Assembly (NCBI GenBank): GCA_964494385.1
Contig: CAZBSE010000003.1
Span: 7,849 to 71,848, forward strand
From: an uncultured Actinomycetota bacterium
Lineage (GTDB): Bacteria; Actinomycetota; Humimicrobiia; Humimicrobiales; Humimicrobiaceae
Direction: 5' to 3'
Length of the DNA: 64,000 nt
Made by a program: the position numbers and the translations under genes. Each line of letters begins with the position of its first letter. Within the stretch, counting starts at the first letter, position 1. The notes beneath the pieces were generated by a model that saw nothing but the letters and a program-made list of their open reading frames with translations, did no database searches and was not told the origin of the DNA. Of this stretch, positions 8,746 through 23,683 are shown piece after piece.

Positions 8746-9855
8746 CTAGGATACCCTGATTGGCATTAGCAGGTAAACCAAATTTTTATTCTTCTCTGAT
8801 TGCAACAGGATTGGCTTGAGTGGTTCCTCTATTGATAATATTATATTTTTATCTTCAATTATATTTATACCGTCTATCAGAAATTCGGGGTTAAATGCCG
8901 TTTCTATTTCCTCTTCCCCATACGAAACCTCAAATTCTTCGCTGGAACTTCCTACTTCCTTTATATTCATTGAAACCGTTACCCTGCCCTTGTTAAAGTT
9001 TAGCCTGATGGGTATATTGTCCTGAGATATAGATGAAATCCTTTTTACAACCTCCAGAACCCTGCTTCTGTCCAAGATTATATTGTGTTTAAAACTTTTA
9101 GGTATTAGTTGTTTATATTCTGGAAATTTTCCCGAAAGAAGCCTTGAAACTATGGTATTTTTCCTTTTGTTTCCACCTTCCAGGCTAAAGCTTATCTGGT
9201 TCTCCTCCAGATTTATTTCAACAGCTCCTTCCCCGAATTCGCTTTTAAGGATGCTGTCAAGCACTTTGGCCGGAATGACCACCTTTGTCAGCGGTATTCC
9301 CTCTCCCAGTTTTTCCTTTACCAAGGCAAGCCTATAGCTGTCCGTTGCAACCATTCTCAGCACCCCTTCTTCTATTTCTAAGAGCACCCCCGTAAGAACC
9401 GCTCTACTCTCATCCAACGATGCGGCTTTCTGTACCTTTGATACCAGTCCCTTAAACTTATCCAGGTTCATTTTAAAACAATTCTCTTTTTTTATCTCCG
9501 GAAACTCCGGATACTCTTCTACAGACATGGTGTTCAAGGTAAAAAAAGCCTTCTCGCAGCTTATTTTTACCTTGTTGCTGGCCTTATCCAGTTCTAATTC
9601 TATTTTTGACTCTTTGAGACTCTTTAATATATTTATTAAAATTCTGGAGGGCACCACAATTTTCCCTTTTTCAAGTATTTTTACCGATGTGCTGCTTTTA
9701 ATACTTGTTTCCAAATCAGTGCTATACACTGTCAAATTTTCCTGGGCGTCTAGCATTACTCCGCTTAATATAAAAGCTGATGTTTTGGGAGCAATTGCTC
9801 TGCTTGCCATTAGTATGGTGTCAAGAAGTTCTGTTCTTGTAGTTTGAAATTTCAT
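8746..9855 (-). CDS. dnaN: DNA polymerase III beta sliding clamp
   Basis: A 369-aa three-domain clamp lies immediately downstream of dnaA. Confidence 0.9.
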   Translation of the reverse strand: MKFQTTRTELLDTILMASRAIAPKTSAFILSGVMLDAQENLTVYSTDLETSIKSSTSVKILEKGKIVVPSRILINILKSLKESKIELELDKASNKVKISCEKAFFTLNTMSVEEYPEFPEIKKENCFKMNLDKFKGLVSKVQKAASLDESRAVLTGVLLEIEEGVLRMVATDSYRLALVKEKLGEGIPLTKVVIPAKVLDSILKSEFGEGAVEINLEENQISFSLEGGNKRKNTIVSRLLSGKFPEYKQLIPKSFKHNIILDRSRVLEVVKRISSISQDNIPIRLNFNKGRVTVSMNIKEVGSSSEEFEVSYGEEEIETAFNPEFLIDGINIIEDKNIILSIEEPLKPILLQSEKNKNLVYLLMPIRVS

Positions 9856-11532: not shown

Positions 11533-12378
11533 TTAAATATTATTTGAATAATATTCAAGGTATTTTATGCCTTTTTTGGATAATTTTCTTTTACCATTTT
11601 TACTTGGCGTTAAAAATTTAGTTTTTTCCAGATGTATCAGTTCCCTGTACGAAGTTGAGAGGCTAAAGCCTAATTCCTTGGCTATTGTAGAAGGACCGGC
11701 TTCTTCAAGTTCCAGAATTATAAAAAGAATTTTTTTATGCCTTTCGGAAAGAACTTTATAATCGGGCTTATCGAAGCTTTCTGCCGGTGGTTTTGCATCG
11801 GTATCGGCTGCTATCCCGGCGGTTGTTTCACTGCTCGTGTCCGACAGCTTCTGGCTCCTGAACGCTGATTCTAATTTTAGGGATATTACTGTTCCCTTTT
11901 TTATATTATCACTGACATCTATGGATCCTCCGGAAAAGGTGATTGTTTCTTTCACTATGGGAAAGCCGGAGCCTACCCCCCTTATATATTCTTTCATTTT
12001 TTTAGTAGCAGAAGTATATCCGGGAAGAAAGGCTTTATCCTTATCTTCAATCCCCGGACCCTGATCCGATATTATTATATGATTTCCTTTGTCCAGTAGG
12101 GTAATTACGACTTCTCTGAAATCCGCATGTATTAAGTTTTCTATTATTTCTTTTATTATAGTATAGGGAATCTTTCCGCCGATTTCATGGGATAGGCTGT
12201 AGGTTCTCTGAGACGTTTGGTCGATAAAGTTGTTAATGTCGTTAAAGCTAAGGTTAATAATTCTTGGAATACTCCTCATGTTATCATAGACAGCGATCCT
12301 GACCGGTATGTCTGGTTTATCGCGTTCGGGATTATCTGTGGAAGCGATGTCTTTTAAAATGTTATTTGGCTCGGGCAT
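11533..12378 (-). CDS. GHKL/HATPase_c-type ATP-binding domain protein with C-terminal winged-helix DNA-binding domain
   Basis: N-box and G1/G2-box motifs are present (ENLIHADFREV...DQGPGIEDKDKAF...GVGSGFPIV), with a C-terminal wHTH (KILFIILELEEAGPSTIAKELGFSLSTSYRELIHLEK). It lies 12 bp upstream of dnaA on the same strand. Confidence 0.5.
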   Translation of the reverse strand: MPEPNNILKDIASTDNPERDKPDIPVRIAVYDNMRSIPRIINLSFNDINNFIDQTSQRTYSLSHEIGGKIPYTIIKEIIENLIHADFREVVITLLDKGNHIIISDQGPGIEDKDKAFLPGYTSATKKMKEYIRGVGSGFPIVKETITFSGGSIDVSDNIKKGTVISLKLESAFRSQKLSDTSSETTAGIAADTDAKPPAESFDKPDYKVLSERHKKILFIILELEEAGPSTIAKELGFSLSTSYRELIHLEKTKFLTPSKNGKRKLSKKGIKYLEYYSNNI

Positions 12379-12856
12379 GATAAGTAAAGACTATGTTTCA
12401 ATTGTTTACCGCCGGACATATATGAATCCGGTAAACGCTTTTCATTTTCTTTCCAATGCTTTTAAGTTTTCAACAGACTAATAATAATATCTTAGATGAA
12501 AAAAAGCTACTAAATTATATAGTGGGCTGTATAAGTTATGAACATTTGGCATACAATACAGTGGTATTTTTTAAGTTTTCAACAATTTTTTCAACACATG
12601 TGGAAAAACCACAGAAGGTTATGGAAGCCCTTTAAAAAATCACACCATAAAGAATGAAATATCAATATTTTTTTTCAGAAGATATTTTCACAAGAACACA
12701 TGTTTGAAAGTATTAAAATCTAAGACTTTGATAAGGTGCCTTAAAATTAAACTTAATGGTGCTTAAGTGCAAATGCGGGCAACCTTGATATTAGTAAGAT
12801 TAAAATGTATAATCTACTACTTAATTGAGAACAATAACCTAAAAGATAGGCATAAA
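12379..12856. other. candidate oriC region. It is the divergent intergenic space between the rpmH side and the dnaA side and contains repeated DnaA-box-like 9-mers TTTTCAACA (3 copies), TGTGGAAAA and AT-rich tracts.
   Basis: Gene strands switch here. TTTTCAACA occurs at about 12467, 12573 and 12584 and differs from the R-box TTATCCACA at 2 positions. TGTGGAAAAACCACA forms an inverted half-box pair at about 12598. The reverse-complement TGTTGAAAA also occurs in the dnaA-dnaN spacer at about 10096. Confidence 0.45.
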
Positions 12857-12991
12857 ATGAAGAGGACTTTTCAGCCAAACGTTAGAAAAAGAAAAAAAAA
12901 CCATGGTTTTAGAGAAAGAATGAAAACAAAAGCAGGAAGGGCCATAATTGCAAACAGAAGGAAAAAGCAAAGAAAGAAGCTCACTGCTTAA
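12857..12991 (+). CDS. rpmH: 50S ribosomal protein L34
   Basis: [44 protein letters not shown] has the canonical L34 sequence. The track ORF begins upstream, but the ATG at 12857 is the conserved start. Confidence 0.9.
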
Positions 12992-13006
12992 GAGGCTAAA
13001 GGAAAG

Positions 13007-13348
13007 ATTGAAATCGAATTTGGAACACTAAAAAGAAGAAGCGATTTTAATAGAGTTATAAAAGAAGGAATATATAAAAAAGATAAATATTTAATAATAT
13101 ATGTACTTAAAAAAAAAGAAGGCAGTGCCTCGGTAAGAGTGGGTTTTGGAGTAAGCAAAAAAATAGGGGGAGCCGTTTTAAGAAATAGAGTAAGAAGAGT
13201 TTTAAAAGAAGTTTTAAGAAAAATTTGTATAAAAATTCCCGGGAGTCTGGATATCTTTCTTATTGCGAGAAAGGGAATTACAGAAGCAGGGTTATGGGAA
13301 ATAAAAAATCAGCTAGAAAACAGTTTAAATTCAGTCCTCTCTAATTAG
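13007..13348 (+). CDS. rnpA: ribonuclease P protein component. The start codon is uncertain because there is no in-frame ATG, GTG or TTG upstream of the conserved N-terminal region.
   Basis: The in-frame translation directly after the rpmH stop gives ...LKRRSDFNRVIKEGIYKKDKYLIIYVLKKKEGSASVRVGFGVSKKIGGAVLRNRVRR, which contains the RNR motif. The only canonical start is the GTG at 13139, and starting there would remove the conserved N-terminus. Confidence 0.7.
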   Translation: MEIEFGTLKRRSDFNRVIKEGIYKKDKYLIIYVLKKKEGSASVRVGFGVSKKIGGAVLRNRVRRVLKEVLRKICIKIPGSLDIFLIARKGITEAGLWEIKNQLENSLNSVLSN

Positions 13349-15208: not shown

Positions 15209-16597
15209 ATGTCAGAAGAATACGAAGATACCATAACAGCGATTGGGACCAGGGCAGGCGAAGCTGCTATAGGTATAGTCAAATTAAGCGGAGACAGATC
15301 GATCTTTATAGCGGATAAGTTATTCAAATCAAAAAATAAAAAAAGAATTAAGGATATGAATACATACAGCATGCTTTATGGACATGTGACTGACAGTAAA
15401 GGGAATATAATAGACGAAGTGGTGGTTACTCTTATGAGGAAACCAAAATCCTATACCAGGGAGGACGTTGTAGAAATAAATTGCCATGGCGGGATCATTG
15501 CTACAATAAAGGTAATGGAGCTGTGTATTGAAAATGGAGCAAGAATTGCTGAACCGGGAGAATTTACGAAAAAAGCATTTTTAAACGGTAGAATAGACCT
15601 TTCCCAGGCAGAGGCAGTAATTGATATGGTAAAATCAAAAACAGAACAGTATTTAAAAATTGCTGCTAAAAATTTATGCGGGAACATAAAAAAAGAAATA
15701 GAAAAGCTAAGGGGAATGGTGGAAGACGTAATGGTGCAGCTTGAGGCATCAATTGATTTTGTTGAAGAAGATCTGGAAATTACACCTTACAAAAAACTTG
15801 CAGAGAAAGTCAGTAAAATCAGAGCCGAAGTGGAGATATTAATTGAAGATGAAAAGCAGGGGGAAATTATAAAAAACGGTGTAAAGGCGGCAATAGTAGG
15901 GAAACCTAATGTTGGAAAATCAAGCCTGCTTAATTTACTCTCAAAAAAAGAAAAGGCAATAGTAACTTCCATACCGGGAACGACAAGAGATGCAGTAGAA
16001 GAGATCCTGTATATGGAGGGGATACCCCTGGTCCTTGTGGACACTGCAGGGATAAGAAAAGCAAAGAACACAATAGAAAAGCTGGGGGTGGCAAGGAGTT
16101 TGAAACATATAGACGAAGCAGAATTGATAATACTGGTTCTGGATGGAAATAGAAAAATTGATAAAAAAGATCTTGATATAATTAAAAAGATAAAAGGTAA
16201 AAAAACTATCTGCTGCATAAATAAAATATATCTTAAGCAAAAACTGGAGGCGGGGGCGGTCGATAAATATTTTGATAAAAAATTTATTGTAAGGATATCA
16301 GCATTAAAAGGAACCGGTATACGTAAATTAGAAGAAAAAGTGAAGATGTTAATAATGAACAGCAGCGGTATAAACCTGGAAGAAAAAATAATTGTTAACA
16401 GCAGGCATAAGATTATATTAAAAAGAGTGAAGGATGTTTTAAATAGTGCCGAAGAAGCGATGAGAGATGAGATGTCTGAAGAGTTTCCATCTTATGATTT
16501 GAAAACGGCCTATAGTTTAATGGGTGAAATAATAGGAGAGACAACAGGGAGCGATATTTTAGAAAAAATATTCAGCCGGTTCTGTATTGGTAAATAA
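15209..16597 (+). CDS. mnmE: tRNA modification GTPase MnmE
   Basis: The G-domain motif GKPNVGKSSLLN and the C-terminal CIGK motif are present. It is 462 aa long. Confidence 0.9.
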   Translation: MSEEYEDTITAIGTRAGEAAIGIVKLSGDRSIFIADKLFKSKNKKRIKDMNTYSMLYGHVTDSKGNIIDEVVVTLMRKPKSYTREDVVEINCHGGIIATIKVMELCIENGARIAEPGEFTKKAFLNGRIDLSQAEAVIDMVKSKTEQYLKIAAKNLCGNIKKEIEKLRGMVEDVMVQLEASIDFVEEDLEITPYKKLAEKVSKIRAEVEILIEDEKQGEIIKNGVKAAIVGKPNVGKSSLLNLLSKKEKAIVTSIPGTTRDAVEEILYMEGIPLVLVDTAGIRKAKNTIEKLGVARSLKHIDEAELIILVLDGNRKIDKKDLDIIKKIKGKKTICCINKIYLKQKLEAGAVDKYFDKKFIVRISALKGTGIRKLEEKVKMLIMNSSGINLEEKIIVNSRHKIILKRVKDVLNSAEEAMRDEMSEEFPSYDLKTAYSLMGEIIGETTGSDILEKIFSRFCIGK

Positions 16598-16638
16598 TTA
16601 ATGCCAAAAAACAATACCGCGGGAAGATTTGGCGAAAT

Positions 16639-16654
16639 GTTTCACGTGAAACAA
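16639..16654. promoter_or_regulatory. parS: parS centromere-like site (perfect 16-bp palindrome TGTTTCACGTGAAACA), 43 nt upstream of the mnmG paralog start
   Basis: This is an exact match to the Firmicutes-type parS consensus tGTTtCACGTGAAAca. The parA and parB genes lie 4 kb downstream. Confidence 0.8.
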
Positions 16655-16697: not shown

Positions 16698-17987
16698 ATG
16701 AATTATAAGGTAATAGTTATAGGCGGAGGACATGCCGGGTGTGAGGCGGCACTGGCATCTGCAAGAAATGGAGTAAAAACTTTACTGATATCAATAAATA
16801 TGGACAGCATTGCCCTTATGCCCTTCGGCGGTACGATAGGCGGAACCGGGAAGGATAAAATAATAAGAGAGATAGATGCTCTGGGCGGTGAGATTTCAAA
16901 AAATACTGATAAGAATTATATAAATATAATAAACGTTCCGGGCAAAGGGGGACGCGCTTTAAAAACTATACAGGCAGTGGTGGACAGAAGAAGATATTTT
17001 TTATCGATGAAGAAAGTACTGGAAGATCAGGATAATTTAGATTTAAGGCAGGGTCTTGCAGTTAGGATAGAAAAGAAATTAAAAAAATTTTATCTATATA
17101 CCAGCGATGAAATAATTTATAGCTGCAGGGCTATTGTTCTATGTACCGGTACTTTTTTAAGAGGAAAAATTTTTTGGGGCAGGAGAATAATTGAGGCAGG
17201 AAGGCAGGGAGAAATATGTTCAAGAAGACTCTCAATAAGTATTGTAAAAATGGGAGTCAAATTAGACAGAATTAGAAGTTATGCCGCCCCATCGGTTGAT
17301 AGGAAAACAATTGATATAAATAGACTGTTAAAGCAGCCATCTGAAAGGTGCCCGGAGTTGTTTTCGCATGAAAGAAAGATTAATGGAAGGGAACAGTTAA
17401 ACAGCTATATAACATTTACTGACAGGAAATGCACCAAATATATTTTAAGAAGCATAAATAAAGCAGGAGATAGTAAAAGATATATATACTCAGAAAAAGG
17501 CGGAGATATAAATTCAATTGAGGGAAGAATTTTAGAAAATAAAAAGAATGAAAATTTTAAGGTTTGTATACAACCGCTGGGGCGGGATACAAATGAAATG
17601 TATTTGCAGGGACTCGAGACTGCATTGCCGGAAGAAGTTCAGATCGGTATGGTAAGAAGGATTAACGGCCTGGAAAATACGGAAATAACCAGACCCGGTT
17701 ATGGTGTTGAGTATAACTATTTAAAACCCTTCCAAATAAAAAATAATCTGGAAGGCAAAAACATAGAAGGGATCTTTTTTGCAGGGAACATAAACGGTAC
17801 GGGGAGCTATGAAGAAGCTGCAGCACAGGGAATTATTGCAGGCATAAATGCTGCCAGAAAATCACGGGGTCTTGGCAGCATGGTTATAGAGAAAAAGTAT
17901 GAATATATCGGTATGATAATAGAAGGTCTTGTTGACAGGGAAAATAATGGGTTAAAATCAAAAGACATTGTTTCACGTGAAACATAA
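16698..17987 (+). CDS. truncated MnmG (GidA) paralog. It has the FAD-binding and insertion domains only, lacks the C-terminal MnmE-interaction domain, and has degenerate active-site motifs.
   Basis: It aligns along its whole length with the N-terminal two-thirds of the downstream MnmG ([40 protein letters not shown]). In this copy CNPSIGG becomes FGGTIGG, so the Cys is lost, and GPRHCPSID is diverged. Homology stops about 14 codons before the stop, and the last codons are read from the parS palindrome. Confidence 0.7.
   Translation: MNYKVIVIGGGHAGCEAALASARNGVKTLLISINMDSIALMPFGGTIGGTGKDKIIREIDALGGEISKNTDKNYINIINVPGKGGRALKTIQAVVDRRRYFLSMKKVLEDQDNLDLRQGLAVRIEKKLKKFYLYTSDEIIYSCRAIVLCTGTFLRGKIFWGRRIIEAGRQGEICSRRLSISIVKMGVKLDRIRSYAAPSVDRKTIDINRLLKQPSERCPELFSHERKINGREQLNSYITFTDRKCTKYILRSINKAGDSKRYIYSEKGGDINSIEGRILENKKNENFKVCIQPLGRDTNEMYLQGLETALPEEVQIGMVRRINGLENTEITRPGYGVEYNYLKPFQIKNNLEGKNIEGIFFAGNINGTGSYEEAAAQGIIAGINAARKSRGLGSMVIEKKYEYIGMIIEGLVDRENNGLKSKDIVSRET
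17969..17984. promoter_or_regulatory. parS: parS site (second perfect copy of TGTTTCACGTGAAACA). It overlaps the last codons of the truncated mnmG paralog and lies 38 nt upstream of mnmG.
   Basis: Same 16-mer as at 16639. Confidence 0.8.
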
Positions 17988-18022
17988 AATGGAATATTGA
18001 GTAATTTAAGAAAGCGGAGATC

Positions 18023-19891
18023 ATGGTTTACGATATTATAGTCGCAGGTGCGGGACACGCGGGTTGTGAAGCTGCACTTGCATCTGCGAGATTGGGATTA
18101 AAAACACTGCTGCTAACCATCAATGTGGATAAGATTGCTTTAATGCCCTGTAATCCGTCAATAGGGGGACTGGGAAAGAGTCAGCTTGTAAGAGAAATAG
18201 ATGCACTTGGCGGGCAGATGGCAAAAACTGCTGACAGGACTTTGATACAGATTAAAATTTTGAATAAAAGCAAGGGTCCTGCGGTCCAGGCTCTAAGAGC
18301 ACAGATAGACAAGAAGGAATATGAAATCGAAATGAAGAGGGTCTTAGAGAATACGGAAAATTTGACCTTAAGGCAGGGTACTGTAAAGAAAATATGCGTA
18401 AAGGATAATTCAGTAACCGGAGTAGAAGTAGAAAGCGGTATACGTTTTTCGGGGAAGGCTGTAATCATAGCCACTGGTACTTTTTTAAGGGGAAGAATAA
18501 TCATTGGAAAGAAAGATTATCCTGCGGGCCGCATGGGTGAATATCCTGCCATGAATCTTACGGGGAATTTAATAAACCTTGGGTTTAAAATAAGCAGGTT
18601 CCAAACCGCAACCCCACCCCGAATCGATAAAAGAACCATAAATTTTTCAAAAACTGCTGTACAGTATGGTGAAAGACAATATTTAAGCTTCTCTTTCTGG
18701 GATAAAGAGAAGATTCATGATAGCATCAAGTGCTACCTTACATATACCAATGAGAAGACTCATAAGGTGATTGCTGAAAATATTGAGCAATCTCCTATAA
18801 AATCCGGTATGATCAGCTCACATGGTCCTAGGCACTGTCCCTCCATAGACAGGAAGGTAATTAATTTTCCAGAAAAGAAAAGGCACCCGGTTTTTATTGA
18901 ACCAGAGGGGCTTTTTACAAATGAGATGTATCTGCAGGGATTAACCACGAGTATGCCCATGAAAGTGCAGCAGAAGATAATAAATACAGTGGAGGGATTG
19001 GAAGATGCAAGAATAATAAGACCGGGTTATGCCGTGGAATATGATTACATAATTCCAAATCAATTGAATTTTACTCTGGAATCTAAAATAGTTGAAAACC
19101 TGTATTTTGCAGGGCAGATAAATGGCACTTCGGGGTATGAGGAAGCTGCGGCACAGGGACTGATTGCGGGAATAAATGCAGCATTGAAAGTAATTTCCAG
19201 ACCTTCGTTAATTCTAACAAGAGATAATAGCTATATAGGAGTCTTGATAGACGATCTTTTGACAAAAAAACTTTTGGAGCCTTATAGGATGTACACTTCA
19301 AGGGCAGAATATAGACTGGTATTGCGTTCCGATAATGCCGATATAAGATTAAGCGGATTTGGAAATGATATCGGTCTTATAACTGACAGACAGTACAGCG
19401 GAGTGATTAAGAGAGAGAAAGAAATTAATAAATTGATTAAAAAGCTAAAAGCAAAAGTTTTAAATCCTGGCAAGGCTAACAATTCCGTTCTGCAGAGAAT
19501 GGGCATAAAACCAATTGATGCCCCCCTGAGCATTTACGGGCTTTTAAAGAGGCCCGGAGTAGATATAAAAAATACAGTGTGTTTGCTTAACAGCGGGAGT
19601 GGTGATTTTAGCAGAAATATTTTAAAACAAGCGGAGATCAGAATAAAATATGAGGGCTATATAAACAGACAATTAAGTGAAATTAAAAAATTGGAAAGCC
19701 TGGAGAAATATAATCTTCCGGAAGATTTTGATTATTATAAGATAATGGGGCTGGCTTATGAGGCCCAGGAAAAGCTTGCTAAAATTAAGCCCAATACTCT
19801 GGGGCAGGCTTCAAGAGTCGCAGGGGTATCTCCTGCGGATATTTCGATACTGATGTTAAACTTAAAAGGTAAATTAAAAACGGGTGCTTGA
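18023..19891 (+). CDS. mnmG: tRNA uridine 5-carboxymethylaminomethyl modification enzyme MnmG (GidA), full length
   Basis: The 622-aa protein has [10 protein letters not shown] at the N-terminus, the motifs [11 protein letters not shown] and GPRHCPSID, and the C-terminal helical domain. Confidence 0.9.
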
Positions 19892-20625
19892 ATTTGGAAA
19901 TCGATAATATTTTGAGATTGTCGTTTCAAAAACTTGAAATAAAATTTTCTGCAGATCAACTTGAACAGGTAAAAAAATATTTAAACCTGCTTTATAAATA
20001 TAATAAAATGATAAATCTTGTAGGAACTAAGGATAAGGAAGGCATACTCATAAGGCATTTTCTGGACTGTCTTTCAATATTAAAATATGAAGGATATTTT
20101 TTTTATGGTACTGATTTCGTAGAAAAAATCCTCGATGCAGGAACAGGTTCAGGGCTGCCGGGTATTCTTCTATCTATTTTTTTAGAGGACAAATTATTTT
20201 ACTTGCTGGATAAAACACAAAAGAAGATAGATTTTTTAAAGCTTATGGTAAAAGAGCTGGGACTTAAAAATGTTACAGTAGTCAAAGGGAGAGCAGAGGA
20301 GCTCTCAAAAATAAATTCTTACAGAGAAACTTTTGATATAGTTCTGGCAAGAGCTGTGGCGAAATTTAATATATTAAGCGAATTTGTAATTCCATTTTGC
20401 AGAATAAATGGTAGAATTATATTTTATAAAGGAAGAAATATTTTTAATGAATTGGAAGAGAGCAGAGGAGCCGTATTGAAACTCGGGGGGAAGGTAGATA
20501 GTTTGTTAGAGATAGAAGTTCCATATCTTAATGAGTTTAGAGCTTTTTTAATAATCAAAAAAACAGAGAAGTCTCCCGAGCAGTACCCCCGAAAATTTCA
20601 AATAATTAAGAAGAAGCCATTGTAG
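19888..20625 (+). CDS. rsmG: 16S rRNA (guanine527-N7)-methyltransferase RsmG (GidB)
   Basis: It carries the SAM-binding motif [12 protein letters not shown]. It overlaps the mnmG stop by 4 nt. Confidence 0.85.
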
Positions 20626-20758
20626 AGGGCATTGTATTAATGCATTATAATGTATAATTGTCTAAAAGCATAAATGGGGGGATGTGCTATTATTGATGAG
20701 GTTTATAGATATGGTTATCAAGAATAGAAAAACAAGAGAAACCATAAGGAAAGGATAT

Positions 20759-21520
20759 ATGGGGAGGATAATTGCTATTACAAATCAAAAAGGCGGTGTA
20801 GGGAAAAGTACAACTGCAGTAAATGTAGCTGCTTATATGAGCTCTTACGGCTATAAGACTTTGCTTATAGATCTTGACCCTCAGAGCAATTCAACCAGTG
20901 GATTGGGTGTAAATCCTGCTGATATCAAAGAATCGGTTTATGAAGTTTTAATACATGAAAGGGACCCCAATGAGATAATCTTAAATTCTTCATATAAAAA
21001 TCTTAAAATCCTGCCCTCTTCCATACAGCTTGCCGGTGCGGAAGTAGAACTGGTTGCCAGCTTAAAGAGGGAGTTCAAGTTAAAAGAAGCGGTAGATAAA
21101 ATCAAAAAGGATTATGATTTTATCCTGATTGACTGCCCGCCGGCTCTGGGACTTTTGACCATTAATGCTCTAACTGCAGCAAGAGAGGTCATTATTCCCA
21201 TACAATGTGAATATTATGCCCTGGAGGGTCTGGGCCAGCTTTTAAATACCATAAACCTGGTTAAAAAAAATCTTAATAATAAATTAAAGATAAAGGGAGC
21301 CATAATGACTATGTACGATCCAAGGATAAAACTGGCCGAGCAGGTAATCGAGGAAGTCAAAAATTATTTTTCGGAAAAGGTTTACAGGACAGTCATTCCC
21401 AGAAATGTGAGGCTAAGCGAGGCACCAAGTTATGGCAAACCTATAGTAGAATATGACCCTAATTGCAAGGGCGCAGAGGCCTATAGCAATTTTACGAAGG
21501 AAGTGATAAAAAATGGTTAG
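20759..21520 (+). CDS. parA: chromosome partitioning ATPase ParA/Soj
   Basis: It has the deviant Walker A motif KGGVGKSTTAVN. The track ORF starts at 20684, but the Met at 20759 gives the canonical length of about 253 aa. Confidence 0.85.
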   Translation: MGRIIAITNQKGGVGKSTTAVNVAAYMSSYGYKTLLIDLDPQSNSTSGLGVNPADIKESVYEVLIHERDPNEIILNSSYKNLKILPSSIQLAGAEVELVASLKREFKLKEAVDKIKKDYDFILIDCPPALGLLTINALTAAREVIIPIQCEYYALEGLGQLLNTINLVKKNLNNKLKIKGAIMTMYDPRIKLAEQVIEEVKNYFSEKVYRTVIPRNVRLSEAPSYGKPIVEYDPNCKGAEAYSNFTKEVIKNG

Positions 21521-22370
21521 GAGGGGATTAGGCAGAGGTCTTAATGCATTGATTCCAAGCATAGATAAATCCTCTGAAGGTGAATCAAATACAATAGTTG
21601 AATTATCATTGGATAGAATTGTTCCAAATAAAAACCAGCCCAGGAATATATTCAATGATGATTCATTAAATGAACTGGCTGAATCAATCAAGAAATTCGG
21701 GATCATCCAGCCTATTGTGGTAAGAAGATTGAGCGGGGGAGATAAATATGAAATCATCACCGGAGAGAGAAGATACAGAGCTGTTAAAAAAATCGGTATC
21801 AATACCATTCCCTCAATAATAGCCAGAGATATTGACGATAGAACTTCTCTGGAAATGGCTCTGATAGAAAACTTGCAAAGGGATGACTTAAAACCAATGG
21901 AAAAAGCTTATACATTTAAGCAGCTTATAGATGAATTTAAAATTACTCATGACCAGCTTTCAAAAAGAATTGGTAAGAGCAGGGCAACAATAACTAATTT
22001 CCTGAGGTTGCTTTCTCTTCCTGCAGAAATCCAAAAGTTAATAGATGAAGGAAAATTAAGCGAAGGTCATGCAAGATCATTACTTCCCATAGAAGAAAGC
22101 GAGAGAGTAAAAATTGCTAATCTTATTGTTAAAGAAGGCTTAAGCGTAAGGGATGTGGAGAGAATAGCAAGCAGAAAAAATGAGCGCAGCAGGGAGATAA
22201 AAATTAGAAAAGTGGAGCAGCTGAGCAAGCTCCCGGAAATATCCAGGAGAATGACCGAGTATCTAAATGTTCCTGTAAAAATAACTATGGGGAGAAAAAA
22301 AGGAAAGATAATAATAGAGTTTGGCTCTATAAAGGGCTTAGAAAGAGTCGTGGATAAAATATTTGGTTAG
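21513..22370 (+). CDS. parB: chromosome partitioning protein ParB/Spo0J
   Basis: GERRYRAVKK matches the ParB box, and a HTH follows. It overlaps the parA stop. Confidence 0.9.
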   Translation: MVRRGLGRGLNALIPSIDKSSEGESNTIVELSLDRIVPNKNQPRNIFNDDSLNELAESIKKFGIIQPIVVRRLSGGDKYEIITGERRYRAVKKIGINTIPSIIARDIDDRTSLEMALIENLQRDDLKPMEKAYTFKQLIDEFKITHDQLSKRIGKSRATITNFLRLLSLPAEIQKLIDEGKLSEGHARSLLPIEESERVKIANLIVKEGLSVRDVERIASRKNERSREIKIRKVEQLSKLPEISRRMTEYLNVPVKITMGRKKGKIIIEFGSIKGLERVVDKIFG

Positions 22371-23296: not shown

Positions 23297-23683
23297 GTGA
23301 AAGGCGTATATTGCCTGCTTATAAACTGCAGGAAGCAACAATCAATAAGAATAGGTAATCTTGGGATTATTAATTTTAGGAAAGGCTTTTACTTATATGT
23401 GGGTTCGGCTCAAAATAGTATAGAAGGAAGGGTATCAAGACATCTGAGAAGTAAAAAAAGGAAATTTTGGCACATAGATTATTTTTTATCGAATAAGTAT
23501 GTAAATATTGACCATGTTTACTGTATTGCAGCCAAAAAAAAGATGGAGTGTAATATTGCAAAAAAAGTGAGAGCTGCAGCGCAGCCCGTAATGAAGTTTG
23601 GATCTTCGGACTGCAGGTGCGGGAGCCATCTCTTTTTTGTTAATAATCAGGAACGGAATTTGACCGATTTTTTATTTGTTTGA
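23297..23683 (+). CDS. DUF123 (GIY-YIG-like) domain protein
   Basis: GVYCLL...IRIGNLG...GFYLYVGSA...RVSRHL...FWHIDYFL follows the DUF123 pattern. Confidence 0.5.
   Translation: MKGVYCLLINCRKQQSIRIGNLGIINFRKGFYLYVGSAQNSIEGRVSRHLRSKKRKFWHIDYFLSNKYVNIDHVYCIAAKKKMECNIAKKVRAAAQPVMKFGSSDCRCGSHLFFVNNQERNLTDFLFV

What the first reader, a model, noticed from the sequence alone, without database searches (positions are those of the whole stretch)
16698..19891. Tandem mnmG duplication in which the upstream copy is truncated and active-site-degenerate
ORF 16698..17987 (429 aa) aligns residue by residue with the first two-thirds of the full-length MnmG at 18023..19891. It stops just after the insertion domain, so it lacks the whole C-terminal helical domain that contacts MnmE. 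The conserved Cys of CNPSIGG is replaced (FGGTIGG). The GPRHCPSID motif is diverged (PSERCPELF). FAD-binding motifs are kept ([25 protein letters not shown]). The gene was not TrmFO, because it aligns to MnmG-specific blocks such as REIDALGG and TNEMYLQGL. It looks like an old partial tandem duplication whose reading frame now terminates inside the parS palindrome. It could be a regulatory or inactive MnmG-like FAD protein, or a neofunctionalised one.
Basis: seen in the sequence. Interest (0 to 1): 0.6.

Follow-up and report, generated by a model that had tools for sequence, protein, structure and literature searches.

The report
Conserved dead, truncated MnmG paralog
Next to the normal tRNA-modifying gene mnmG sits an old second copy that has lost both catalytic cysteines and its MnmE-binding tail, yet natural selection has kept it across a deep branch of uncultured Actinomycetota, so it probably serves as a non-catalytic helper or has a new job.

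Summary
ORF 16698..17987 (429 aa) is 41% identical over 416 residues to the full-length MnmG at 18023..19891. It lacks both catalytic Cys and the helical domain, and its last five codons are a perfect parS.

This was not a partial duplication. In 12 independent loci, from Ca. Humimicrobiia-like MAGs to Ca. Hakubella, the slot between mnmE and canonical mnmG always holds a paralog. That paralog is full-length with both Cys (~600 aa), or intermediate (Cys1 only), or short with no Cys (407–484 aa). Each copy is preceded by a parS, and the full-length upstream copies already end in the parS-coded "VSRET".

So an ancestor duplicated parS plus nearly the whole of mnmG. The upstream copy then lost its cysteines and C-terminus stepwise.

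The short form is not a pseudogene. Its dN/dS is 0.17–0.25. FAD-domain constraints are fully kept, and the active site has settled on new conserved residues.

The function is inferred, not shown. Most likely it is a non-catalytic FAD-fold accessory to MnmE–MnmG, possibly the inert protomer of an asymmetric dimer. I found no published description. It is a new variant of a known family and moderately interesting.

The parts
15209..16597 (+). mnmE (462 aa), ending in the conserved FCIGK motif; first gene of the conserved mnmE-paralog-mnmG-rsmG block
   Evidence: translation ends ...RFCIGK. Synteny with Pfam-annotated loci (TrmE_N, MnmE_helical, MMR_HSR1).
16638..16653 (.). parS-1: perfect 16-bp ParB-binding palindrome TGTTTCACGTGAAACA, 44 nt upstream of the short paralog's ATG. 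Its 5' flank TTTGGCGAAA is conserved in relatives.
16698..17987 (+). Short MnmG paralog (429 aa). It comprises the FAD-binding domain, both insertion domains and about the first 20 residues of the helical domain (aligned to E. coli MnmG 7-417), followed by a 14-residue unrelated tail.
   Evidence: AlphaFold2 model pTM 0.84. Foldseek TM 0.84-0.85 to MnmG structures 2ZXI, 3CP8 and 9HIP.
16824..16826 (+). Codon for Phe43, which replaces catalytic Cys1 (E. coli C47). F or Y occupies this site in 43 of 45 other short-clade members.
17508..17510 (+). Codon for Ile271, which replaces catalytic Cys2 (E. coli C277, inside MnmG-specific motif 1 that contacts the MnmE swivel helix). The site is variable across the short clade.
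   Evidence: Role of motif 1 from PMC12397908.
17943..17984 (+). Non-homologous 14-residue tail (ENNGLKSKDIVSRET). Its last five codons are parS-2.
17969..17984 (.). parS-2: perfect palindrome that encodes VSRET of the short ORF. It is followed by TAA and lies 38 nt upstream of the canonical mnmG ATG.
   Evidence: repeat family D4, spacing 1331 nt.
18023..19891 (+). Canonical full-length mnmG (622 aa) with both Cys (C43, C272) and both C-terminal helical domains
   Evidence: (834.7 bits, above the 524.85 cutoff).
19888..20625 (+). rsmG (gidB), overlapping the mnmG stop codon
   Evidence: Synteny with GidB-annotated genes.
20684..22370 (+). parA (20684-21520) and parB (21513-22370), the partition proteins expected to act on the two parS sites
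   Evidence: Synteny with ParA and ParB Pfam hits.

Best explanation
What it is (well supported). An ancestor of a deep-branching group of uncultured Actinomycetota (Ca. Humimicrobiia-like lineages and Ca. Hakubellales) tandemly duplicated a unit made of parS plus almost the entire mnmG gene. This produced mnmE-parS-mnmG'-parS-mnmG. The reading frame of the upstream copy ran into the second parS and ends there (..NVSRET*). Both copies were then inherited vertically. The downstream copy stayed a normal MnmG. In some lineages the upstream copy still looks fully active. In others it lost Cys2 and the terminal helical bundle, and later Cys1 and nearly all of the helical domain. The window's 429-aa gene is the most reduced state.

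How it most likely works (inferred). The short protein is made and is under selection. It keeps the FAD-binding Rossmann core and probably still binds flavin. [quoted passage not shown] It lacks the helical arms and motif 1 that dock MnmE, and it lacks the Arg/Lys residues that hold tRNA. Its former active site has been rebuilt with conserved aromatic and small residues: F/Y at E. coli position 47, G at 48, Y/F at 200, A at 202. I therefore propose a non-catalytic, FAD-fold accessory of the MnmE-MnmG machinery encoded in the same operon. The most specific version is that it pairs with full-length MnmG as the inert protomer of an asymmetric dimer. The parts it has lost are the parts that are disordered and unused in the non-engaged protomer of the E. 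coli alpha2-beta2 complex.

Confidence split: about 0.85 for origin and 'selected but non-catalytic'; about 0.3 for the heterodimer mechanism.
For: Origin:
- The same gene order is found in 12 loci, with the upstream slot holding full-length, intermediate or short forms.
- Two parS sites flank the upstream copy in every locus where both flanks are present; L091 ends before the second.
- Nearly all full-length upstream copies end in parS-coded NVSRET, or in MFHVKH in the other parS frame.
- In L089 both copies are preceded by parS+TAGGAGGA+~7 nt+TTG.
- In-register DNA remnants in the window have a spacing of 1325-1331 nt.
- NJ tree: upstream clade 99%, downstream clade 98%, the two together 76% excluding 14 outgroup phyla, with mirrored topologies. 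The Cys-less clade (88%) nests inside the full-length forms. With the Cys1-only intermediates P0049 and P0026 it reaches 98%.
- C-terminal end-points are graded.

Selection:
- dN/dS is 0.25 (dS 0.45) against the closest relative and 0.17-0.22 for other pairs. The same genome pairs give 0.05-0.08 for canonical mnmG, 0.07-0.12 for mnmE and 0.12-0.18 for rsmG.
- 70 columns are invariant among 22 short forms.

What is kept and what is lost:
- G13, G15, G52, G53, G67, G68, G156, T157, G173, Y308 and Y377 are >=93% conserved (at most 3 of 45 differ at any of these sites).
- C47 -> F/Y in 43/45, N48 -> G in 39/45, G200 -> Y/F in 43/45, P202 -> A in 44/45.
- R96, T199, R275 and C277 are lost. R432, R436, K547, Y551, R554, E585 and K589 are absent or not conserved; R427 survives in 16 of 45 short forms.
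- Of canonically conserved sites, the short clade keeps 49/67 in the FAD domain but only 11/33 in insertion domain 1 and 15/61 in insertion domain 2.
- The fold is confirmed.

Literature:
- C47 and C277 are required, and motif 1 and the helical domain contact MnmE (PMC12397908).
- In the alpha2-beta2 complex the non-engaged protomer has no FAD density, and its motif 1 and residues 554-629 are disordered.
- An MnmG dimer binds one tRNA, and deleting residues 550-629 abolishes MnmE binding (PMC4027165).

Operon: there is no plus-strand terminator between mnmE and rsmG.
Against: - There are no expression, flavin-binding or interaction data. Everything about function is inferred from sequence.
- I could not establish where the MnmG homodimer interface lies. 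If the interface needs the N-arm of the helical domain, the 429-aa form could not pair in the canonical way.
- Tight linkage is weak evidence for interaction, because tandem duplicates are born linked and this origin-proximal block is syntenic anyway.
- The tree is neighbour-joining on about 414 columns with fast-evolving branches, and the upstream+downstream sister relation has only 76% support.
- Constraint is relaxed 2-3 fold relative to canonical mnmG.
- The ribosome-binding site in front of the window's short ORF is weak.
Confidence: 0.55

Rival explanations
1. Neofunctionalised stand-alone flavoenzyme. The remodelled pocket (F/Y47, G48, Y/F200, A202, plus clade-specific residues) would serve a new FAD-dependent reaction that needs neither MnmE nor the two cysteines, on tRNA or on another substrate.
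For: - The replacement residues are consistent across 45 diverged members, not random.
- FAD-domain constraints are fully retained.
- Purifying selection is present.
- There is precedent for GIDA-fold enzymes that work without MnmE, namely TrmFO and RlmFO (PMC4081110, listed).
Against: - Most conserved sites of the two insertion domains, which form the substrate cleft, have become variable: 20 of 33 and 45 of 61. This looks like loss of a substrate site more than gain of one.
- The AlphaFold model has low confidence in exactly the former catalytic loops.
- The proposed NADH-binding motif 1 is degenerate, so flavin reduction is doubtful.
- The tRNA-binding basic residues are gone.
Confidence: 0.2
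2. DNA-level role. What is selected is a pair of parS sites about 1.3-1.9 kb apart as a ParB loading zone next to oriC, and the ORF between them is largely a passenger.
For: - Both parS sites are perfect and present in nearly every locus, while the gene between them varies from 1.2 to 1.9 kb.
- They are the only parS sites in the 64-kb window.
Against: - A passenger would not show dN/dS of 0.17-0.25, 70 invariant residues, an intact frame in every locus, or retention of the FAD motifs.
- Spacer length is not conserved.
- This idea can explain retention of the second parS but not of the protein.
Confidence: 0.07
3. Slowly decaying relic or pseudogene with no function, still open by chance.
For: - Loss of the cysteines and the C-terminus is progressive and possibly repeated.
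- Constraint is relaxed relative to canonical mnmG.
- The Shine-Dalgarno sequence is weak in some loci.
Against: - The frame is open in all loci, across lineages whose synonymous sites are saturated.
- dN/dS is well below 1 and similar to rsmG.
- The FAD domain is as conserved as in the full-length paralogs.
- No out-of-frame remnants or internal stops were found.
Confidence: 0.05
4. One reading: a partial duplication that copied only the first two-thirds of mnmG.
For: In the window alone, homology stops at residue 415, and the repeat period between the copies is about 1328 nt.
Against: - Full-length paralogs sit in the same slot in related genomes and form the paraphyletic base of the short clade.
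- Intermediates exist.
- The parS-coded C-terminus is shared by the full-length forms and some short forms.
- Truncation end-points are scattered between residues 387 and 481.
Confidence: 0.03
5. Sequencing or assembly artefact: a frameshift splitting one gene, or a collapsed repeat.
For: None found. One relative (L003) does have a frameshifted canonical mnmG, which shows that such errors occur in these data.
Against: - The two copies are only 41% identical.
- Only 35 nt lie between them.
- The same arrangement recurs in independent JGI, ENA, NCBI and Logan assemblies, and the same 429-aa protein is on at least 7 contigs.
Confidence: 0.01

Closest known systems
MnmG / GidA (tRNA uridine-5-carboxymethylaminomethyl(34) synthesis enzyme; TIGR00136; PDB 3CES, 2ZXI, 3CP8, 9HIP)
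   Same: - It is the direct evolutionary parent.
- The FAD-binding and two-insertion-domain fold is the same (TM 0.84-0.85).
- Identity is 33-38% to solved MnmGs and 41% to the neighbouring gene.
- The FAD motifs are the same, as is the operon with mnmE and rsmG.
   Different: - It lacks C47 and C277, the whole helical domain (N- and C-arms) that binds MnmE and tRNA, and motif 1.
- It scores below the NCBIfam cutoff.
- Its active site is rebuilt with F/Y47, G48, Y/F200 and A202.
- It always co-occurs with a genuine MnmG rather than replacing it.
Full-length upstream MnmG paralog of the same lineage ('group B', e.g. P0046 in L004 and P0054 in L089; annotated simply as MnmG in MAGs)
   Same: - Same genomic slot and same flanking parS pair.
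- Same parS-coded C-terminal VSRET.
- Shared clade-specific residues (V99, L124, D142, W165, S180, T337 in E. coli numbering).
- About 50-55% identity.
   Different: - Group B keeps every catalytic and tRNA-binding residue and the helical domain. It differs from canonical MnmG only at K56R, G200E/D, R515Q and K589S, so it probably is a second active MnmG.
- The window's protein is its degenerate descendant.
TrmFO (Gid, 'small GidA'; folate/FAD-dependent tRNA m5U54 methyltransferase) and its paralog RlmFO
   Same: - Similar length (~430-445 aa).
- GIDA-type FAD domain without the MnmE-binding helical domain.
- It acts without MnmE.
   Different: - The relationship is only distant: 60-63 bits against cutoffs of 262 and 428, matching only residues 303-409, with TM 0.42.
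- TrmFO has its own catalytic cysteines and folate site. The window's protein has neither.
Thermus thermophilus GidA-related protein (PDB 2CUL, 225 residues in the solved chain, function unknown)
   Same: It is a short stand-alone protein with a GidA-like FAD-binding core and no helical domain.
   Different: - Identity is 13%.
- It covers only the Rossmann core (TM 0.79 normalised to the target, 0.43 to the query).
- There are no insertion domains.
- It is unrelated in origin to this duplication.
Catalytically dead paralog subunits of tRNA-modifying enzymes (TsaB with TsaD, Trm6 with Trm61, ADAT3 with ADAT2). This is an analogy from general knowledge, not tested here.
   Same: It is a paralog of an active enzyme that has lost catalytic residues, is often shortened, and is kept by selection alongside the active copy.
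   Different: For those systems the heteromer is demonstrated. Here no interaction has been shown, and the dimer interface could not be examined.

Membership tests
MnmG/GidA (functional equivalog, TIGR00136) | GIDA FAD-binding domain with its two insertion domains | tested here: met
   PF01134 at 342.6 bits over residues 4-391. Foldseek TM 0.84-0.85 to 2ZXI, 3CP8 and 9HIP.
MnmG/GidA (functional equivalog, TIGR00136) | Whole-protein score above the curated NCBIfam cutoff | tested here: not met
   376.4 bits against a cutoff of 524.85. The neighbouring gene scores 834.7.
MnmG/GidA (functional equivalog, TIGR00136) | Two catalytic cysteines (E. coli C47 and C277) | tested here: not met
   Phe43 and Ile271 occupy these positions. 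Across 45 other short forms, position 47 is F (31) or Y (12) and position 277 is variable. The requirement for both Cys is from PMC12397908 and its Table S3.
MnmG/GidA (functional equivalog, TIGR00136) | C-terminal helical domain (PF21680 + PF13932) that binds MnmE and tRNA | tested here: not met
   There are no Pfam hits for either domain. Homology ends at residue 415, which is E. coli ~417-420. R432, R436, K547, Y551, R554, E585 and K589 are absent or not conserved across the short clade; R427 is absent from the window's protein but kept in 16 of 45 short forms.
MnmG/GidA (functional equivalog, TIGR00136) | cmnm5U34/nm5U34 synthesis together with MnmE | not testable with these tools
   This requires biochemistry or tRNA mass spectrometry.
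TrmFO | Score above the TrmFO model cutoffs, and TrmFO-like fold over the full length | tested here: not met
   63.1 bits against 262 (NF003739) and 60.1 against 428.65 (TIGR00137), matching residues 303-409 only. TM to 3G5R/3G5Q is 0.42.
Chromosomal parS centromere site (ParABS) | 16-bp palindrome matching TGTTNCACGTGAAACA | tested here: met
   Two exact matches at 16638-16653 and 17969-17984, with 0.04 expected by chance.
Chromosomal parS centromere site (ParABS) | Origin-proximal location near parAB, conserved in relatives | tested here: met
   parA and parB lie 2.7 kb downstream and dnaA 5 kb upstream. Both sites are conserved in the related loci.
Chromosomal parS centromere site (ParABS) | Bound by ParB in vivo | not testable with these tools
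   This needs ChIP-seq or an in vitro binding assay.
Non-catalytic paralog subunit (pseudoenzyme partner, TsaB/Trm6/ADAT3-like) | Derived from the active enzyme by duplication, with catalytic residues lost | tested here: met
Non-catalytic paralog subunit (pseudoenzyme partner, TsaB/Trm6/ADAT3-like) | Maintained by purifying selection alongside the active paralog | tested here: met
   dN/dS is 0.17-0.25. It co-occurs with canonical mnmG in every locus that extends downstream of it (11 of 12; L091 ends there).
Non-catalytic paralog subunit (pseudoenzyme partner, TsaB/Trm6/ADAT3-like) | Physical complex with the active paralog | not testable with these tools
The papers on the MnmG dimer interface are not held.

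The most novel reading that the evidence does not exclude
The short protein is the obligate inert protomer of a MnmG heterodimer. In this reading, the lineage has hard-wired into two genes the asymmetry that E. coli MnmG homodimers show only transiently, where one protomer engages MnmE and FAD while the other has a disordered motif 1 and C-arm. The series from full-length to Cys1-only to Cys-less and armless would then be a natural dissection of which parts of the second protomer are dispensable. That would bear directly on the open question of whether the two MnmG protomers have different roles in the MnmEG cycle.
Probability: 0.3. Interest if true: 0.75.

Novelty: new variant of a known kind. 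Interest (0 to 1): 0.5.

Why it matters
MnmE–MnmG is a universal and mechanistically unresolved tRNA wobble-modification machine, and its human homologues GTPBP3 and MTO1 are disease genes. The 2025 cryo-EM work left open why the MnmG dimer behaves asymmetrically and binds one tRNA.

This lineage offers an evolutionary experiment on that question. A second MnmG has been stripped stepwise of its cysteines, motif 1 and both helical arms while its flavin-binding core stayed under selection. If the short form pairs with MnmG, it shows which half-functions of the dimer are dispensable. If it does not, it is a new small flavoprotein family born from MnmG.

There are two further points. It is a clean, datable example of a centromere site (parS) being duplicated together with a gene, and of an ORF whose C-terminus is encoded by parS across class-level divergence. 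For annotation, these genes are currently labelled 'MnmG' or 'FAD-dependent oxidoreductase' and should not be counted as functional MnmG.

Tried and rejected
- **Genome scan.** It returned only canonical MnmGs of other phyla at <=43% identity. This was useless for mapping distribution, but I reused the hits as outgroups.
- **Heterodimer prediction.** I submitted the short and long proteins joined by a linker to AlphaFold2.
- **MnmG dimer interface.** Shi 2009 (DOI and PMC2786596) is not held. Ruiz-Partida 2018 is known only as a citation. The reviews I consulted do not say which domains form the interface.
- **Promoter scan.** Hits were at background level (38 against 34.5 expected), so I drew no conclusion about a separate promoter.
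- **DnaA boxes.** The consensus is not enriched (27 against 19.8 expected), so oriC is inferred only from composition and gene order.
- **Hidden C-terminal remnants.** A tblastn search for out-of-frame helical-domain remnants downstream of the short ORFs found none. The C-terminal sequence has been deleted, not merely frameshifted.
- **Recent gene conversion.** Rejected, because DNA remnants between the copies are only 71-88% identical over 26-52 nt.
- **TrmFO identity.** Rejected.
- **Literature.** Searches for MnmG paralog, gidA2, mnmG2 and MnmG-like found no description of this family.


Full report
**1. The observation**

They lie inside the origin-proximal block rnpA-yidD-yidC-jag-mnmE-[short]-mnmG-rsmG-parA-parB-lipA. 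BLASTP aligns them over 416 residues at 41% identity with one single-residue gap (E = 3e-108).

Pfam sees only the GIDA domain in the short protein. The long one has GIDA plus both C-terminal helical domains. The NCBIfam MnmG model gives 376 bits for the short protein, below the 524.85 cutoff, and 835 bits for the long one. TrmFO models give about 60 bits.

An AlphaFold2 model built with an alignment of 22 relatives has pTM 0.84. It superposes on solved MnmG structures with TM 0.84-0.85, against 0.42 for TrmFO. By alignment to the tagged E. coli chain 9HIP_C, the protein covers E. coli residues 7-417. In the domain scheme of the 2025 cryo-EM paper (PMC12397908), that is the whole FAD-binding domain, both insertion domains and about the first 20 residues of the helical domain.

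Cys1 (CNPSIGG) is Phe43. Cys2 aligns with Ile271.

The last five codons, VSRET, are a perfect parS (17969-17984) followed by TAA. A second perfect parS lies 44 nt upstream of the short ORF's ATG (16638-16653). These are the only two parS sites in 64 kb, with 0.04 expected by chance.

**2. It is a conserved family, not a one-off**

A search of 5.8 billion proteins returned a graded set of relatives. Motif and identity analysis splits them into three groups:

| Group | Length | Catalytic Cys | Identity to short ORF | Identity to long ORF |
|---|---|---|---|---|
| A | 407-484 aa | neither | 47-80% | ~40% |
| B | ~590-624 aa, with a SAM_GIDA_C domain | both | ~50% | ~50% |
| C (canonical MnmG) | ~620-630 aa | both | ~44% | 53-83% |

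The short ORF is therefore closer to group B than to its own neighbour.

Genomic context was recovered for 12 loci: the window, L001/2, L003, L004, L085/86, L087-L093. Every one shows mnmE, then an A, B or intermediate protein, then canonical mnmG (L091 ends before it), and where the locus extends further, rsmG, parA and parB.

Named sources are Candidatus Hydromicrobium (class Ca. Humimicrobiia) and Candidatus Hakubella thermalkaliphila (Ca. Hakubellales). The rest are labelled Actinomycetota bacterium. In Hakubella, an IS607-like resolvase-plus-TnpB element has been inserted between the two copies.

**3. Origin: a full-length duplication that included parS**

Several lines of evidence agree:

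- Every locus has a parS 15-44 nt before the upstream copy and a second one 28-41 nt before the canonical copy. The sites are degenerate or shifted only in Hakubella and in the two intermediate loci.
- In group B, homology to canonical MnmG runs to residue 607-617 of 622. The ORF then reads through parS, ending NVSRET, or MFHVKH in the other parS frame. The right-hand breakpoint of the duplication was therefore within the last few codons of mnmG. Ending in parS is ancestral to the upstream copy, not a by-product of truncation.
- In L089 both copies are still preceded by parS+TAGGAGGA+~7 nt+TTG.
- In the window, in-register DNA remnants have a spacing of 1325-1331 nt and are only 71-95% identical over short stretches. 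This argues against recent conversion.
- A neighbour-joining tree (414 columns, 100 bootstraps) recovers the upstream clade at 99% and the downstream clade at 98%. The two are sisters at 76%, excluding 14 MnmGs from other phyla and the best non-lineage hits. Branching orders in the two clades mirror each other. This fits one ancestral duplication followed by vertical co-inheritance.

**4. Stepwise degeneration**

Group A forms a clade (88%) nested within paraphyletic group B. P0049 (459 aa) and P0026 (538 aa) keep Cys1 and have lost Cys2. With them included, support rises to 98%. Both occupy the same slot.

Measured against group-B queries, homology ends at the following residues (L089_up / P0017 coordinates):

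| Form | End of homology (L089_up / P0017) |
|---|---|
| P0026 | 514 / 546; only the terminal bundle is missing |
| P0049, L003, L087, L088, L090, Hakubella | ~446-465 / 454-495 |
| Window, L001 | 414-416 / 440-441 |

Measured against the window's canonical MnmG, end-points in 46 short forms scatter from residue 387 to 481. Six of them still end in VSRET, which implies internal deletions rather than one nonsense event. No out-of-frame remnants remain.

Hakubella's copy lost Cys1 but kept Cys2, so it appears to have decayed independently. An exhaustive HMMER search of 1.84 billion cluster representatives shows the core clade collapses to about six representatives at 50% identity, scoring 491-709 bits, with canonical MnmGs at <=440 bits. 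That search also reveals further short Cys-less representatives that branch beside full-length ones. This hints at repeated degeneration, but it rests on an NJ tree with long branches and no genomic context.

**5. It is under selection**

Nei-Gojobori dN/dS values for the same genome pairs:

| Gene | dN/dS |
|---|---|
| short paralog | 0.25 against the closest relative (dS 0.45, unsaturated); 0.17-0.22 for other pairs |
| canonical mnmG | 0.05-0.08 |
| mnmE | 0.07-0.12 |
| rsmG | 0.12-0.18 |
| parB | 0.06-0.10 |

Constraint is relaxed two- to three-fold relative to canonical mnmG, but it is clearly purifying. The frame is intact in every locus, and 70 columns are invariant among 22 short forms.

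**6. What is kept and what is lost**

As a numbering ruler I used an E. coli MnmG sequence recalled from memory. I validated it against all 51 residue identities given in Tables S2 and S3 of PMC12397908, with zero mismatches. Then I tabulated the published functionally important sites.

Group A:
- Keeps G13, G15, G52, G53, G67, G68, G156, T157, G173, Y308 and Y377 at >=93% (at most 3 of 45 differ at any site).
- Has C47 -> F/Y (43/45), N48 -> G (39/45), G200 -> Y/F (43/45) and P202 -> A (44/45).
- Has lost R96, T199, R275 and C277.
- Lacks, or no longer conserves, R432, R436, K547, Y551, R554, E585 and K589; R427 survives in 16 of 45.

Group B keeps all catalytic and tRNA-binding residues. It differs only at K56R, G200E/D, R515Q and K589S, so it looks like a second active MnmG.

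The table below counts sites that are conserved in canonical MnmG and still conserved in each group:

| Domain | Group A | Group B |
|---|---|---|
| FAD-binding | 49/67 | 49/67 |
| Insertion domain 1 | 11/33 | 19/33 |
| Insertion domain 2 | 15/61 | 41/61 |

The low-confidence segments of the AlphaFold model (residues 38-43, 168-173, 258-269, 416-429) coincide with the former Cys1 loop, a loop of insertion domain 2, former motif 1, and the tail.

**7. Mechanism**

*Shown.* The protein cannot be a standard MnmG. The literature establishes that C47 and C277 are required. Motif 1 (residues 273-287) and the helical domain contact MnmE. Deleting residues 550-629 abolishes MnmE binding. Basic residues of the helical domain bind tRNA.

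*Inferred.* The protein is a folded, probably flavin-binding, non-catalytic derivative that is co-transcribed with mnmE and mnmG. There is no plus-strand terminator between mnmE and rsmG.

My preferred specific model, at about 0.3 probability, is that it pairs with full-length MnmG as an inert protomer. In the E. coli alpha2-beta2 complex, the protomer not engaged with MnmE has no FAD density, and its motif 1 and residues 554-629 are disordered. An MnmG dimer also binds only one tRNA. The elements dispensable in that protomer are the ones lost here.

This model is untested. I could not determine whether the homodimer interface lies within residues 1-415.

**8. Comparison and novelty**

The protein fails three defining features of MnmG, fails TrmFO membership outright, and has only a core-fold resemblance to the Thermus GidA-related protein 2CUL. 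It behaves like the dead-paralog subunits known for other tRNA-modifying enzymes (TsaB, Trm6, ADAT3). That comparison is an analogy from general knowledge, and the defining feature, a physical complex, could not be tested.

Full-text searches found no description of a second or truncated mnmG of this kind. Databases label these genes 'MnmG' or 'FAD-dependent oxidoreductase'. I rate it a new variant of a known kind, with interest 0.5.

**Caveats**

- All relatives are MAGs or metagenome contigs.
- The trees are distance-based.
- Groups A and B were assigned by motif and length.
- No expression or biochemical data exist.

Noticed in passing
window 12380-13130: GC falls to about 0.29-0.30 and AT skew changes sign here. 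The region lies between a minus-strand block (dnaN 8746-9855, dnaA 10156-11520, and a 281-aa gene at 11533-12378 that is HATPase_c-type by synteny) and the plus-strand rnpA...parB block. It is a probable oriC, but the E. coli-type DnaA-box consensus is not enriched (27 hits in the window against 19.8 expected).
   Followed up: partly
window 16628-16637, and the equivalent position in L001, L003, L004 and L087-L091: The 5' flank of the first parS is itself conserved across loci (TTTGGCGAAA(A) immediately before the palindrome). The flank of the second parS is not. This could be an extended ParB or other protein recognition element, or the end of an mnmE terminator or UTR.
   Followed up: no
L085 3475-5297 (Ca. 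Hakubella thermalkaliphila, BLSD01000016.1): An IS607-like element (serine resolvase plus a TnpB/OrfB_IS605 gene) is inserted between the degenerate upstream mnmG copy and canonical mnmG. The parS sites there are degenerate or multiplied (5345, 5406).
   Followed up: no
L003 8479-10349: The canonical mnmG of this Hydromicrobium-like contig is split into 505-aa and 104-aa ORFs. This is probably a frameshift error in a long-read assembly rather than biology.
   Followed up: no
L004 7001-8806 and L089 6001-7779 (group B): Some related genomes carry two apparently fully competent MnmG genes side by side with a single mnmE. The upstream one has fixed K56R, G200E/D, R515Q and K589S; E. coli K589 is listed as functionally important (Meyer et al. 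2009, Table S3 of PMC12397908). This suggests a second MnmG specialised in partner, tRNA or amine substrate.
   Followed up: partly
L093 5700-5740: Downstream of the stop codon of the intermediate 538-aa form, the DNA before parS still reads ...TGTTATGTTAAAA-parS. This matches the ancestral C-terminal coding sequence (CYVKN-VSRET in L089) with a 1-nt difference, and appears to be a fossil of the original 3' end.
   Followed up: partly
proteins P0153, P0169, P0190, P0209, P0230 (no loci available): These are further short (446-492 aa) GIDA-only cluster representatives lacking one or both Cys. In an NJ tree, P0153, P0190 and P0209 branch next to full-length relatives outside the main short clade, whereas P0169 and P0230 fall within it. 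They may be independent degenerations, but their genomic context could not be retrieved.
   Followed up: partly
window 23297-23683: A 128-aa ORF lies after the radical-SAM (lipA-like) gene. It sits where L088 and L089 carry a DUF123 (PF01986) gene, so it is another conserved member of this origin-proximal block with unknown function.
   Followed up: no
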